NCBI RefSeq assembly: GCF_055900595.2
Contig: NZ_CM148325.1
Strand: one strand, 5' to 3'
DNA: 64,000 nucleotides
Shown here: in pieces, positions 3,000 through 5,900 of the stretch
Layout: each line of letters starts with the position of its first letter
Numbering within the stretch: the first letter of the stretch is position 1
Made by a program: the position numbers and the translations under genes
The notes under the pieces: generated by a model
What the model was told of the DNA's origin: nothing
Seen by the model: only the letters and a program-made list of their open reading frames with translations
Database searches by the model: none

Positions 3000-5900
3000 T
3001 CAGAACGACCAGTTCACACCAGCCACCGCGTTCCACGGGGATTCCACACCGGCACCATGGCTATACCCCACCCCGAGATGCCCGCTTAACGAACTGCTGA
3101 ATGAGGCTTTAATACCTGCCTGGTATATTCCACGTCTGCCCGACAAATCATTGACAAAATTACCGTCATTATTCACTTTCACCCGGTTATCATCGACAAA
3201 TTCTTTGCGCACAGCCGCCTTCAGCCACGGCTCAACTTCCATGCCGTTCCCCAGACGCATGTTGTAACTCAGCGTTGCGCCCAGTTCACGATATATACTG
3301 CGGGTATCGACTGATTTCGATTCCATACCATTGGATAAATGATATTCGGGGTTATCAGCGGTGAACCCCGTTAACGATGCATACGGCGTCAGGTTCCAGT
3401 TACCATCGGTAAATCGCATCCCGGTTTCAATGTGACCGCCCAGCCCGTTGCTGCGATAACTGCCGCTGGCGGCTCCACCGCTGCTCATTTTACCGGCTAC
3501 GTTACTTTCAAAGCGGTTCAGCTTCACGATACCGTCCAGATAGAAACCACTTTCATGTTCCCAGCTGACATAGCCCCCCAGAGAATAACTGCCCACACTG
3601 CCATGTCCTCCACGATCAAAACCGATATGTGAATGGGGGAATAACCCATAAAAGCGCCCAGCGTCGCAATCCCCTCAGGAATACCATTACGGCTATCGAT
3701 CCCCACCGTCATTCCGGTCAGCGTCTGCTCAAACCCGGCACCCGCATCGGTGGTGACATTATTACGGGTGTTATACGTCGTCCCCCAGACATTATTGTTT
3801 TGTGGACTCGCTTTCATTATGTTCAACCGCTCGCGAATACTGTTTAGCTCAGCATCAAAGACCAACGGTAATGTTGCTGCCATATTGAGTACGGCTGCCG
3901 TAGAAGGCGTGATGCGTTTCTCCGGGACGGGTGTCGGCGTTGGATCGGGAGTCGGGTCTGGTTTCGGATCCGGTTTTGGGTCTGGTTTTGGATCCGGTTT
4001 CGGATTTGGGTTGGGGTCCGGGTTGGGTTTGACATCATTGGTCAGGTTCCAGTTGCTGTTGCCGTCGCTTTTCAGGACATACTCATAGGTCCCAAGATCA
4101 ACGAAACCGCCGGTATTACCCAGCGTAAACGAAGCATCCCCTCCCCCTGTTTTCACCAGCGTCATCGCGTCGTCAGACTGAGGGCTGACGCCGGTATCCT
4201 GAACAAAGATTTTAAAATTGCCAGTGGCGTTGTTGTTGACGACCAGTTGATCGCCCCGGGAGCCTGCAACGTTGGTATGCAGGTAGAAATTACCGCTGCC
4301 GGAAAGTTCACTGGTGGTCAGCGTATTGTAGATACCGTTAGTTGTGGCAGGCGCTGCTGTTTGTGCTGATAAATAAACATCACCGTCGTTGAGGAGCAAA
4401 CTGTTTACTCTATATTCGCAGTTGCTGGTGCCTGCACAGGAATTATTGCTGTTAAGCCAGACATTGCCCCGGCTGGCAGCCGTCAGGTCGGCAAGCGTCG
4501 TATCGACGCCATTTCCGATAGTTAATGTCGCGCTATCGGTAATCCGGACCACCCCTTCAAGTTTAACTGGCGTAACATTATCCCGTGGCGTCATTAACGA
4601 CAGGCTTCCTGTCGCGCCACTGACCGATGCATCCGCCAGCGTACCTGCGTAGACGATTGCCGTCCCGCCAGCGACCTGTAGATCTTCTGCCCGGGCCAGA
4701 GCCTGAAACTCATCTTTTGACCGACCAAGGGTATATTGCCCACCGGAATTAACCTTTGTGGCGAAGTCCTGACCCAGGTTTTGCATTGCCCCACCGTTGC
4801 CAACCGTGGAATCGCGAGCTTCGGTACCTGCTAATACCAATAAATTACCGCCATTTTCCAGCAGCACATTGGTCGCTAAATTTCCGGCAATGGAAAAGGT
4901 GCCGTACTGGTGAGTACCGCTGATTTCAATACCGTTAGCCGTGCTCGTCTGGAGAGCGGCACCGCTGTTCTGGATGATATCTGTCGCTTTGCCATTATCG
5001 TTGACTGTCAGCGTACCGCCTTCATTAATCGTTGTTTTTACTGCCTCACCGTTAGCCGAAACTGTTTGTATTCCGCCGTCGTTAATCGTTGTCTCATTCG
5101 CCACACCCTCGACGATTTGTTCACCGCCGGTAAGCATCGTGCCAGTCGCAGTGGCTTTTGTTTTGACGATCTCCCGTCCGCCCGCATTGACCTGTGTTTT
5201 GGCGGAAGTGGTGTCTGACTCCACGGTTAACACGCCGCCATTTGCCAGCAGGATATTGTTCGCCGCATCCTGCTCGATGCTGAACGCGACGCCATCAGCG
5301 CGTGTCCCTGTGACCCGCGTCGCCCTGGTGGTTGCCACCAACGCGCCCTGGCTACTCTGCTGTATCCCCGTAGCGCTGCCTTTCTCCCGCACATCGAGTG
5401 TGCCGCCGTCATTAAGTACCGAGTTTTCAGCCAGACCGCCCTCATTAACTACCTGTGAACCGCCATTAATAATGGAACCTTCCGCTGTCCCGTTTGCCAT
5501 AATTTGTTGCAGGCCAGAGACGATATCGGTATTGATCGCCTTACCATAATTCTGAACGGTTTGCGTGCCGCCTTTGATGTGCGTTTTATCTGTTGACCCA
5601 CCATCAACAATTTGTTCACCACTTTCGATATTTGCCTCAGTGGCTAAACCATATACCGTTTGCTTGCCACCTTTGATATTTGCTTTATCAGAAGTGGCAC
5701 TGGCATATATTGTTTGGGTGCCCGCACTATTGAGTACAGTGCCAACATCTTTTCCATAAACATCCATTTTGCCGTTGGCATTAATAATCGTATCAACTGC
5801 CCGGGAACCAGTAACGACTGTTAATGAGCCAGCGTTTTCCAGCACTACATTTTTAGCTTCTGAATTCCTGATGTAGAAAGCATCACCATAACTGTTGGTT

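What the first reader, a model, noticed from the sequence alone, without database searches (positions are those of the whole stretch)
3890..4040. Low-complexity (PNPDP/KPDPKP)n linker encoded by a GGATCC/GGTTT-rich DNA repeat
The passenger-to-barrel linker is a run of short tandem repeats at DNA level (ggatccggttttgggtctggttttggatccggtttcgg...). Such tracts are prone to slipped-strand change and could vary the linker length, and so how far the passenger is held from the cell surface.
Basis: seen in the sequence. Interest (0 to 1): 0.2.

Follow-up and report, generated by a model that had tools for sequence, protein, structure and literature searches.

The report
Variable proline-rich autotransporter linker repeat
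A 120-base repeat encodes a proline-rich spacer between the adhesin part and the membrane anchor of an E. coli surface protein; related gene copies gain and lose 6-base units, but this copy is a scrambled, stable version in a gene that looks broken, so it is real but ordinary.

Summary
Window 3920-4039 (minus strand) encodes NDVKPNPDPNPNPKPDPKPDPKPDPKPDPTPDPTPTPVPE, with proline at every second residue, as an imperfect array of 6-nt CCN-RAN units.

It lies between the pertactin-type end of the passenger and the pore helix plus beta-barrel of a YpjA/EhaD-like type Va autotransporter next to minE.

- ypjA alleles carry 32, 40, 42 or 44 residues.
- Other minE-locus alleles carry (NP)n linkers of 48-92 residues.
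- 60 genomes with identical 1.7-kb flanks hold 11-28 NP units. In the six checked by sequence, all changes fall in perfect CCAAAT or CCGAAC runs.
- Every length measured is a multiple of 6 nt, so this is length variation, not an on/off switch.

The window's own allele behaves differently. It has no perfect adjacent repeat, and all 60 nearest genomes share its 120-nt length. The window gene also carries a private +2-nt frameshift in the barrel (3635-3636).

The effect on how far the passenger stands from the surface is plausible but untested.

Verdict: a new member of a known kind (TibA proline-rich domain, pertactin PQP region). Interest is low to moderate.

The parts
3920..4039 (-). Proline-rich linker tract: 40 codons, 20 six-nt units, NDVKPNPDPNPNPKPDPKPDPKPDPKPDPTPDPTPTPVPE
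   Evidence: Translation and exact mapping. AlphaFold2 pLDDT is below 50 for residues 80-114 of the 420-aa C-terminal segment, which is window 3923-4027.
3940..4028 (-). Core of the DNA repeat (period 12/24, imperfect); 12 consecutive CCN-RAN units at 3957-4027
   Evidence: Tandem Repeats Finder; pattern search with shuffles.
4040..4408 (-). Pertactin-type C-terminal passenger (junction/autochaperone) domain, directly upstream of the tract in the protein
   Evidence: Pfam PF03212, residues 1134-1256 of the 1427-aa ORF, E 4.8e-45. Pertactin 1DAB residues 461-534 align to residues 4-76 of the 420-aa segment.
3809..3907 (-). Alpha-helical linker predicted to plug the barrel pore, starting 4 residues after the tract
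   Evidence: AlphaFold2 helix 120-152 at high pLDDT. Vag8 7AKV and BrkA 3QQ2 alignments start at residues 111 and 138.
3000..3796 (-). Autotransporter beta-barrel domain, broken by the frameshift
   Evidence: Pfam PF03797 on ORF 3000-3596, E 8.9e-35. The AlphaFold2 model of the intact orthologue has a barrel of about 12 long strands.
3635..3636 (-). +2-nt insertion (C3 to C5 run on the gene strand) that splits the gene into ORFs 3524-7807 and 3000-3596
   Evidence: Alignment with intact orthologues L003 and L004. The two bases are also absent from L015. The eight best full-length matches span 2 nt fewer than the query, and the other ten span 3 nt fewer to 9 nt more.
3000..7678 (-). Whole YpjA/EhaD-like AIDA-type autotransporter gene at the minE locus (start placed by analogy with the PGAP CDS of L003)
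   Evidence: 11 AIDA repeats, Pertactin and Autotransporter domains. The orthologue is annotated as an intact 4677-nt CDS. 94% identity to ypjA.

Best explanation
The tract encodes a 40-residue spacer with proline at every second position. It joins the folded C-terminal end of a beta-helical passenger to the pore helix and beta-barrel of a YpjA/EhaD-like type Va autotransporter encoded next to minE.

At the DNA level it is a degenerate array of 6-nt units (CCN plus an Asn, Asp, Lys or Thr codon). In this gene family the array changes length by whole units, most simply by replication slippage or unequal exchange between units. How often it changes depends on how long the perfect runs are. Sister alleles with runs of up to 16 identical CCAAAT units vary among otherwise identical genomes. 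The window's allele has been scrambled by synonymous changes, has no perfect adjacent copy, and is fixed at 20 units in its relatives.

Inferred, not shown: the peptide forms an extended polyproline-II-like stalk of roughly 11 nm that starts at the extracellular mouth of the barrel. A wide range of lengths (32-92 residues) is tolerated. Because the unit is 6 nt, slippage changes length but never the reading frame.

In the window itself the gene carries a frameshift in the barrel, so this copy is probably not made as a working protein.
For: Position:
- Pfam Pertactin domain ends at the residue before the tract, and the barrel domain follows.
- Pertactin 1DAB 461-534 aligns to residues 4-76, Vag8 to 111-419 and BrkA to 138-420 of the 420-aa segment, in which the tract is 76-115.
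- The AlphaFold2 model (mean pLDDT 84) has strands up to residue 75, pLDDT below 50 with no secondary structure for 80-114, a helix at 120-152, then a barrel.

Repeat reality.

Length polymorphism in whole units:
- Ten sequence-verified tract lengths: 96, 120, 126, 132, 144, 162, 186, 210, 270 and 276 nt.
- Spread sample of genomes: 19 rows at 120 nt, 30 at 126 nt, 8 at 132 nt, 1 at 96 nt and 1 at 276 nt. A second sample agrees.
- E. albertii homologues have alternating-proline runs of 18, 30 and 32 residues.

Slippage signature:
- 60 genomes with identical 1719-nt flanks (all 3183 bits) carry 11, 12, 23, 25, 26, 27 or 28 NP units.
- Unit strings show that only the homogeneous CCGAAC and CCAAAT runs change, while the interrupted 5' part is invariant.
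- 14 genomes differ from L012 only by +6 nt and 7 only by -6 nt over 1621 nt.

Stability of the window allele:
- No perfect adjacent unit.
- 60 of 60 nearest genomes (99.0-99.8% flank identity, at either locus) have 120 nt.

Protein-level constraint: window versus K-12 ypjA tract shows 11 synonymous against 2 non-synonymous codon differences.

Frameshift.

Precedents:
- TibA has a proline-rich domain between the junction region and the barrel (PMC3835316).
- The TonB proline-rich linker is described as an extended polyproline II rod (PMC5413942).
Against: - No experiment or structure shows that this peptide is extended or rigid. Low pLDDT says only that it is not globular.
- No data link linker length to surface exposure, adhesion or biofilm.
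- Slippage was not observed directly. It is inferred from the allele pattern, and unequal recombination or exchange between the two paralogous loci could contribute.
- Allele frequencies come from samples of 60 rows per search, not from all 5,426 genomes.
- Some tract lengths could be assembly errors. However, errors would not be confined to multiples of 6 nt and to homogeneous runs.
Confidence: 0.75

Rival explanations
1. Adaptive length tuning. The array is a contingency locus. Slippage produces stalks of different reach, and selection matches them to O-antigen or capsule thickness, or varies an exposed epitope to escape antibody, as argued for pertactin repeat regions.
For: - (NP)n alleles are hypervariable among genomes with identical flanks.
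- Linker lengths span 32-92 residues.
- The tract starts at the outer mouth of the barrel.
- Pertactin repeat-number variants are used for typing and discussed as antigenic variation (PMC3966384, PMC12243275).
Against: - The window allele and the common ypjA alleles are length-stable across lineages.
- Variation among identical-flank genomes is mostly plus or minus 1-2 units (about 1-2 nm if extended), which is small compared with surface glycan layers.
- That changes keep the reading frame is no evidence of selection, because a 6-nt unit cannot shift the frame.
- No association with serotype was tested.
- Family members are often pseudogenes, which suggests weak selection on the gene.
Confidence: 0.15
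2. Secretion aid rather than stalk. The thin, non-folding proline-rich segment mainly helps start passenger translocation (a hairpin in the barrel or BamA pore) and keeps the junction domain from folding too early. Its length outside the cell is incidental.
For: - It lies directly next to the pore helix, at the point where translocation starts.
- The alternating-proline pattern is conserved at protein level despite synonymous turnover.
- Own knowledge: the C-terminal part of the passenger is the first to be exported in type Va secretion.
Against: - Most autotransporter homologues retrieved, including YejO-type proteins with the same Pertactin and barrel domains, have no alternating-proline run of 5 or more units at this position. 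It is therefore not required for secretion by this barrel type.
- A three-fold length range is tolerated.
Confidence: 0.1
3. The tract is itself a binding or adhesion module. From memory, deletion of the proline-rich region was reported to impair TibA adhesion (Cote and Mourez 2011; paper not held in the library).
For: Same position as the TibA proline-rich domain (PMC3835316). The charge pattern (KPDP) is conserved.
Against: Sister alleles replace KPDP by uncharged NP repeats of very different length. That is hard to reconcile with a specific binding surface. No binding data exist for YpjA-type proteins.
Confidence: 0.05
4. The apparent length variation is an assembly or sequencing artefact in a low-complexity region.
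For: Long-read assemblies can miscount repeats. One Logan contig (P0114) reads out of frame through the tract.
Against: - All sequence-verified alleles and all 60 spans are multiples of 6 nt.
- Changes are confined to homogeneous runs.
- Lineages share alleles consistently: the sampled O157:H7 genomes all have 132 nt and the sampled K-12 genomes all have 126 nt.
Confidence: 0.03

Closest known systems
YpjA/EhaD autotransporter of E. coli (ssrA-adjacent locus)
   Same: 94% nucleotide identity over the gene, and 96-100% to the strain N3 allele over window 3150-6650. Same domain order. Homologous tract, identical over the 261 nt tested in strain N3. PGAP names several minE-locus copies ypjA.
   Different: Different chromosomal locus (next to minE, where K-12, O157:H7 and most other genomes sampled keep only a barrel remnant). 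The N-terminal passenger is only 75-82% identical. The window copy is frameshifted.
Proline-rich domain of TibA (ETEC self-associating autotransporter)
   Same: A proline-rich segment of about 50 residues between the junction region and the membrane-embedded domain (PMC3835316). Same family type (AIDA-like beta-helix passenger).
   Different: No sequence comparison with TibA was run here. Repeat-number polymorphism of the TibA segment is not documented in the papers read.
Pertactin repeat regions (GGXXP and PQP) of Bordetella
   Same: Proline-containing repeats whose copy number differs between alleles and is used for typing (PMC3966384, PMC12243275). The pertactin fold aligns to the residues just before the tract. 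Own knowledge: the PQP region lies just after the crystallised P.69 passenger, which is the equivalent position.
   Different: Tripeptide PQP versus dipeptide PX units. Different genus. In pertactin the variation is discussed as vaccine-driven or antigenic. Nothing comparable is known here.
TonB proline-rich (Glu-Pro / Lys-Pro) periplasm-spanning linker
   Same: Alternating X-Pro dipeptides with charged residues. Described as an extended polyproline II rod acting as a spacer (PMC5413942).
   Different: Inner-membrane anchored and periplasmic. Not homologous. Not known as a variable-number repeat.
Trypanosome procyclin (PARP) Glu-Pro / Asp-Pro repeats
   Same: Pfam PF05887 matches the tract (E 2.5e-07, 31 bits). 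Own knowledge: an alternating acidic-Pro rod on a cell surface.
   Different: The score is far below the curated cut-off of 100 bits, so this is a compositional match only.
Bacterial VNTR or contingency loci in surface-protein genes (for example the generic E. coli MLVA loci with 6-bp units)
   Same: 6-nt unit. Copy number differs between closely related isolates in the (NP)n alleles.
   Different: Not one of the GECM-10 MLVA loci: none of the 20 primers matches near the tract (primers from PMC8143711). Not an on/off switch, because units are multiples of 3 nt.

Membership tests
Type Va (classical) autotransporter, AIDA-I/pertactin type | C-terminal 12-strand beta-barrel translocator (PF03797) preceded by a pore-plugging alpha-helix | tested here: met
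   PF03797 at E 8.9e-35. BrkA and Vag8 alignments. AlphaFold2 helix 120-152 plus barrel for the intact orthologue. In the window the barrel ORF is split by a +2-nt frameshift.
Type Va (classical) autotransporter, AIDA-I/pertactin type | Beta-helical passenger with AIDA repeats and a pertactin-like C-terminal junction (autochaperone) domain | tested here: met
   PF16168 with 11 stretches, E 2e-139. PF03212 at E 4.8e-45.
Type Va (classical) autotransporter, AIDA-I/pertactin type | N-terminal Sec signal peptide | not tested
   The N-terminus from the PGAP-equivalent start reads MNRTSRYYFRRSVLSLLISALIYAQPGEA, which looks like a signal peptide. No predictor was run.
YpjA/EhaD | Close sequence identity to E. 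coli ypjA over the whole gene | tested here: met
   About 94% over 83-84% of the 6-kb query. 96-100% to the N3 allele over most of the gene but 75-82% in the N-terminal passenger.
YpjA/EhaD | Chromosomal position next to ssrA or the CP4-57 region | tested here: not met
   The window gene lies between minE and ymgG/ymgD. It is a paralogous locus. In the window-type genomes fetched, PGAP calls the gene 'AIDA repeat-containing protein'.
Slippage-prone VNTR (simple-sequence contingency locus) | Run of perfect head-to-tail repeat units | tested here: not met
   The window allele has at most 1 perfect copy for units of 6, 12 or 24 nt. Sister alleles have up to 16 perfect CCAAAT units.
Slippage-prone VNTR (simple-sequence contingency locus) | Copy number differs among closely related strains | tested here: not met
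   For the window-type allele, 60 of 60 nearest genomes have 120 nt. For the (NP)n sister alleles the feature is met: 7 length classes among 60 genomes with identical flanks.
Slippage-prone VNTR (simple-sequence contingency locus) | Slippage switches expression on and off (unit not a multiple of 3) | tested here: not met
   The unit is 6 nt, and all observed lengths are multiples of 6.
Proline-rich polyproline-II spacer (TonB-like, TibA proline-rich domain) | Proline at every second or third position over tens of residues, between two folded domains | tested here: met
   Proline at every second residue from P80 to P114 of the 420-aa segment (18 prolines), between confidently modelled domains.
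Proline-rich polyproline-II spacer (TonB-like, TibA proline-rich domain) | Extended, rod-like conformation in solution | not testable with these tools
   AlphaFold2 gives pLDDT below 50 and no secondary structure. This is compatible but not informative.

The most novel reading that the evidence does not exclude
The linker array is a mutational 'reach rheostat'. Perfect (NP)n arrays let lineages change the stalk length of the adhesin quickly, in 0.6-nm steps, to suit their surface glycan coat or to vary an exposed epitope. Alleles such as the window's have been locked at one length by synonymous interruptions that selection favoured. That would make it a length-tuning contingency locus in a type Va autotransporter, with a built-in way of switching the mutability off.
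Probability: 0.15. Interest if true: 0.5.

Novelty: new member of a known kind. Interest (0 to 1): 0.25.

Why it matters
- Proline-rich spacers and repeat-number variation in surface proteins are well known, so the finding does not change any concept.
- The case is unusually clean. At one locus in one species there are both hypervariable perfect arrays (11-28 units among genomes with identical flanks, up to 16 identical units in a row) and interrupted, length-fixed arrays.
- This pair gives a natural system for measuring how repeat purity controls slippage.
- It also gives a natural system for asking whether stalk length matters for display of an autotransporter through LPS and capsule.
- Practical uses: the (NP)n tract could serve as a high-resolution typing marker within lineages that carry the minE-locus gene (416 of 5,426 genomes). 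Linker length is a design variable when YpjA-type scaffolds are used for surface display.
- For the window itself the consequence is small, because the gene appears to be frameshifted.

Tried and rejected
1. Generic E. coli MLVA loci. I tested whether the tract is one of the 6-bp VNTR loci of the GECM-10 scheme (CVN014, 015, 016, 017). Primers were taken from PMC8143711 and searched with up to 3 mismatches in the window and all loci fetched. There was no hit near the tract; the only hit was CVN014R with 3 mismatches at window 41261. Rejected.

2. Literature search for the peptide motifs (NPNPNPNP, KPDPKPDP and similar). It returned only table artefacts and nothing on autotransporters. A search for ypjA with 'proline-rich' found no paper describing this tract.

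3. The search for homologous proteins with the 420-aa C-terminus. It returned only proteins of 730 aa or less and mostly fragments. This was useful for seeing other alleles but unsuitable for allele frequencies, so genome BLAST with tract-deleted flank queries was used instead.

4. The Pfam Trypan_PARP hit (31 bits against a cut-off of 100) and the PDB hit to the AcfD/SslE lipoprotein N-terminal region (E 1.2e-4) are compositional matches to proline-rich sequence, not homology.

5. The + strand ORF 3750-4088 (GSGVGSGFGSGFGSGFG...) and the out-of-frame minus-strand ORF 3844-4038 are mirror artefacts of the repeat. The autotransporter frame is the one supported by Pfam.

6. Record spans alone mislead by a few nucleotides, because the flanks carry their own indels. 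H306 appeared to be 135 nt but is 132 nt. H308 appeared to be 258 nt but is 270 nt, because of a 12-nt flank difference. Such cases were checked by sequence.

7. Two older papers (Boursaux-Eude and Guiso 2000; Cote and Mourez 2011) are not held in the library. What I say about them is from memory.
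Full report
**What is in the sequence**

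The quoted string lies at window 3957-3998 on the + strand. Tandem Repeats Finder reports imperfect arrays at 3940-4028 (period 24, 75% matches) and 3952-4005 (period 12, 80% matches). At score 60 or above these are two of only three rows in the 64-kb window.

The coding strand is the minus strand. Window 3920-4039 reads NDVKPNPDPNPNPKPDPKPDPKPDPKPDPTPDPTPTPVPE, which is 20 six-nt units of CCN plus an Asn, Asp, Lys or Thr codon. Six consecutive CCN-RAN units occur seven times in the window, all within 3957-4027. None was found in 100 dinucleotide-preserving shuffles.

No 6-, 12- or 24-nt unit is followed by an exact copy of itself. The longest exact internal repeats are two 11-mers spaced 24 nt apart.

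**The gene**

minC, minD and minE lie at 817-2633 on the + strand. They are followed on the minus strand by one large gene, 3000-7678, which appears as two ORFs (3524-7807 and 3000-3596).
- Pfam finds 11 AIDA repeats, a Pertactin domain at residues 1134-1256 (window 4040-4408, ending at the base before the tract) and the Autotransporter beta-domain in the second ORF.
- Alignment with two intact orthologues (L003 and L004, annotated as CDSs of 4677 and 4683 nt) shows that the window has two extra bases at 3635-3636, a C3 run that has become C5 on the gene strand. This splits the barrel.
- The two bases are missing from the three relatives aligned (L003, L004, L015). The eight best of the 18 full-length matches span 2 nt fewer than the query; the other ten differ by 1 to 9 nt.
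- So this is either a private pseudogenisation or a homopolymer sequencing error.

**Which family and locus**

The gene is about 94% identical to ypjA (EhaD), which lies next to ssrA. The window copy is at the minE locus.
- Only 18 of 5,426 complete E. coli genomes hold the window-type long gene there.
- 416 hold some minE-locus gene that includes the tract.
- Most of the rest sampled keep only a barrel remnant.
- The window gene is 96-100% identical to the ypjA allele of strain N3 over window 3150-6650, but only 75-82% over the N-terminal passenger. The two loci therefore seem to exchange sequence.

**Where the tract sits in the protein**

I used the last 420 residues of the intact orthologue. 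In that segment the tract is residues 76-115.
- Pertactin (1DAB) residues 461-534 align to residues 4-76.
- Vag8 (7AKV) aligns to residues 111-419.
- The BrkA translocator (3QQ2) aligns to residues 138-420.
- An AlphaFold2 model built on 32 homologues (mean pLDDT 84, pTM 0.80) has beta-strands up to residue 75. Residues 80-114 have pLDDT below 50 and no secondary structure. A long helix follows at 120-152, then a barrel of about 12 long strands.

By established knowledge of type Va structures, the N-terminal end of the pore helix is at the extracellular mouth of the barrel. The tract would therefore start at the cell surface and run outwards. This last step is an inference.

A spread sample of genomes matching the 261 nt around the tract gave these tract lengths:
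- 120 nt in 19 rows
- 126 nt in 30 rows, all K-12 strains among them
- 132 nt in 8 rows, all O157:H7 among them
- 96 nt in 1 row
- 276 nt in 1 row

A second sample, using a query from which the tract had been deleted, gave 120 nt (9 rows), 126 nt (13), 132 nt (5) and 270 nt (1). The 132 count includes H306 and the 270 is H308, both corrected from their raw spans after sequence checks.

Sequences fetched for fifteen homologous loci gave linkers of 32, 40, 42, 44, 48, 54, 62, 70, 90 and 92 residues, all multiples of 6 nt.
- The ypjA alleles differ by whole units. Compared with the window, the strain SCU-172 allele (L006) lacks one 24-nt KPDPKPDP block, with end points in the 11-nt repeat AAACCGGATCC.
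- O157:H7 has a duplicated CCCAAC-CCAAAT pair.
- K-12 has one extra CCAAAT unit.
- The shorter minE-locus genes (3339-3471 nt) carry (NP)n instead of KPDP, with up to 16 identical CCAAAT units in a row.
- E. albertii homologues have alternating-proline runs of 18, 30 and 32 residues.

**How fast it changes**

I built a query from the L012 flanks (1319 + 400 nt) with the NP core removed. The 60 best genomes all scored 3183 bits, meaning identical flanks. Their cores held these unit counts:

| NP units | Genomes |
|---|---|
| 11 | 1 |
| 12 | 1 |
| 23 | 1 |
| 25 | 17 |
| 26 | 27 |
| 27 | 7 |
| 28 | 6 |

I then wrote each core as a string of unit types, with a = CCAAAT, b = CCGAAC, c = CCAAAC and d = CCGAAT.
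- Five of the six alleles checked by sequence start with the interrupted part 'abcacadac'. Only the homogeneous b run (5 or 7 copies) and a run (6-9 copies) change.
- The sixth, the 11-unit allele, is a deletion joining two a units.
- With the tract left in the query, 14 genomes differ from L012 by exactly +6 nt and 7 by exactly -6 nt. At 99.6% identity over 1621 nt, the 6-nt gap accounts for the whole difference.

This is the expected signature of slipped-strand mispairing: instability grows with the length of perfect runs.

**The control for the window's own allele**

The same design with the window's flanks gave 59 of the 60 best genomes (99.0-99.8% flank identity, at the minE or the ssrA locus) with the same span. 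The sixtieth was 1 nt shorter, because of a deletion at window-equivalent 3782, outside the tract. The window-type tract therefore has one length in all 60.

The window allele differs from the K-12 ypjA tract by 11 synonymous and 2 non-synonymous codon changes. Two things follow.
- The alternating-proline pattern is kept at protein level.
- The DNA repeat has been eroded, which explains the stability.

**Mechanism and function**

Shown:
- The position of the tract in the protein.
- The unit structure.
- Length polymorphism in whole 6-nt units.
- Concentration of changes in perfect runs.
- Stability of the interrupted allele.
- The frameshift in the window gene.

Inferred:
- Slippage is the process. 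Unequal recombination and exchange between the two loci cannot be excluded.
- The peptide is an extended polyproline-II-like stalk. At about 0.31 nm per residue this gives roughly 11 nm for the window's allele and 10-28 nm over the allele range. The rise per residue is textbook knowledge. The analogy is TonB, whose proline-rich linker is described as a polyproline II rod (PMC5413942).
- That stalk length matters for function is untested.

Because the unit is 6 nt, slippage can never switch the gene off. The in-frame nature of all alleles is therefore not evidence of selection.

**Comparison with what is known**
- TibA has 'an additional proline-rich domain' (residues 627-677) between the junction region and the membrane domain (PMC3835316). 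This is the same architecture.
- Pertactin alleles differ in the number of GGFGP and PQP repeats (PMC3966384), and these repeat regions are used for typing B. bronchiseptica (PMC12243275).
- YpjA is grouped with the biofilm-forming AIDA/Ag43/TibA adhesins, and no structural study has been published for it (PMC9289746).
- I found no paper describing this tract or its polymorphism.
- It is not one of the generic E. coli MLVA loci.

I therefore file it as a new member of a known kind.

**Verdict**

Interest is low to moderate. Its main value is the natural contrast between perfect and interrupted arrays at one locus.

Noticed in passing
window 3635-3636: A +2-nt insertion in a C run (C3 to C5 on the gene strand) splits the autotransporter barrel into two ORFs. 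It is absent from the three relatives aligned (L003, L004, L015), and the eight best full-length matches span 2 nt fewer than the query. Either a private pseudogene or a homopolymer sequencing error.
   Followed up: partly
window 3150-7650 versus L001 (ypjA of strain N3): The minE-locus gene is 96-100% identical to an ssrA-locus ypjA allele over window 3150-6650 but only 75-82% identical over 6650-7650 (N-terminal passenger). This mosaic suggests exchange between the two paralogous loci.
   Followed up: partly
L001 (strain N3 ypjA), L015 (strain MFDS1019527), and the window gene: Several family members are annotated as frameshifted pseudogenes, each by a different small indel (for example a 1-nt deletion at window-equivalent 3782 in L015). 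The genes seem to decay often.
   Followed up: partly
minE locus in other genomes (rows H110-H158): Most E. coli genomes sampled (UTI89 and strain C among them) keep only the last 350 nt or so of the barrel next to minE (query 1-785), and O157:H7 keeps a longer remnant (query 1 to about 1190). The intact gene survives in a minority of genomes.
   Followed up: partly
window 7212-7327: A 54-nt tandem repeat (2.1 copies, 85% matches) near the 5' end of the autotransporter gene. It probably reflects the AIDA-type repeats of the passenger.
   Followed up: no
window 24980-25102 (+), 54301-54376 (-), 61354-61477 (-): Rfam gathering-score matches to the sRNA families isrC, naRNA4 and STnc490.
   Followed up: no
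P0114 (Logan contig, 313 aa): A homologue that leaves the reading frame inside the tract after KPDPKPDPKP and continues as IRNQTRLPIQRRHPS, consistent with loss of one G in CCGGAT (inferred from the window sequence). It is a single contig, so it may be an error or a rare frameshift allele.
   Followed up: no
window 3750-4088 (+) and 3844-4038 (-): Open reading frames on the opposite strand (GSGFGSGFG...) and in another frame (NRIQNQTQN...) run through the tract. They are mirror products of the repeat, with no support as genes.
   Followed up: yes
L009-L012 (about 9.1-9.7 kb in locus coordinates): Genomes with the short (NP)n allele carry a second autotransporter (annotated YcgH or 'ECIAI39_1904 family autotransporter adhesin') beyond ymgD. 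It is absent from the window and from L003 and L004, where ymgF and pdeG follow ymgD directly.
   Followed up: no
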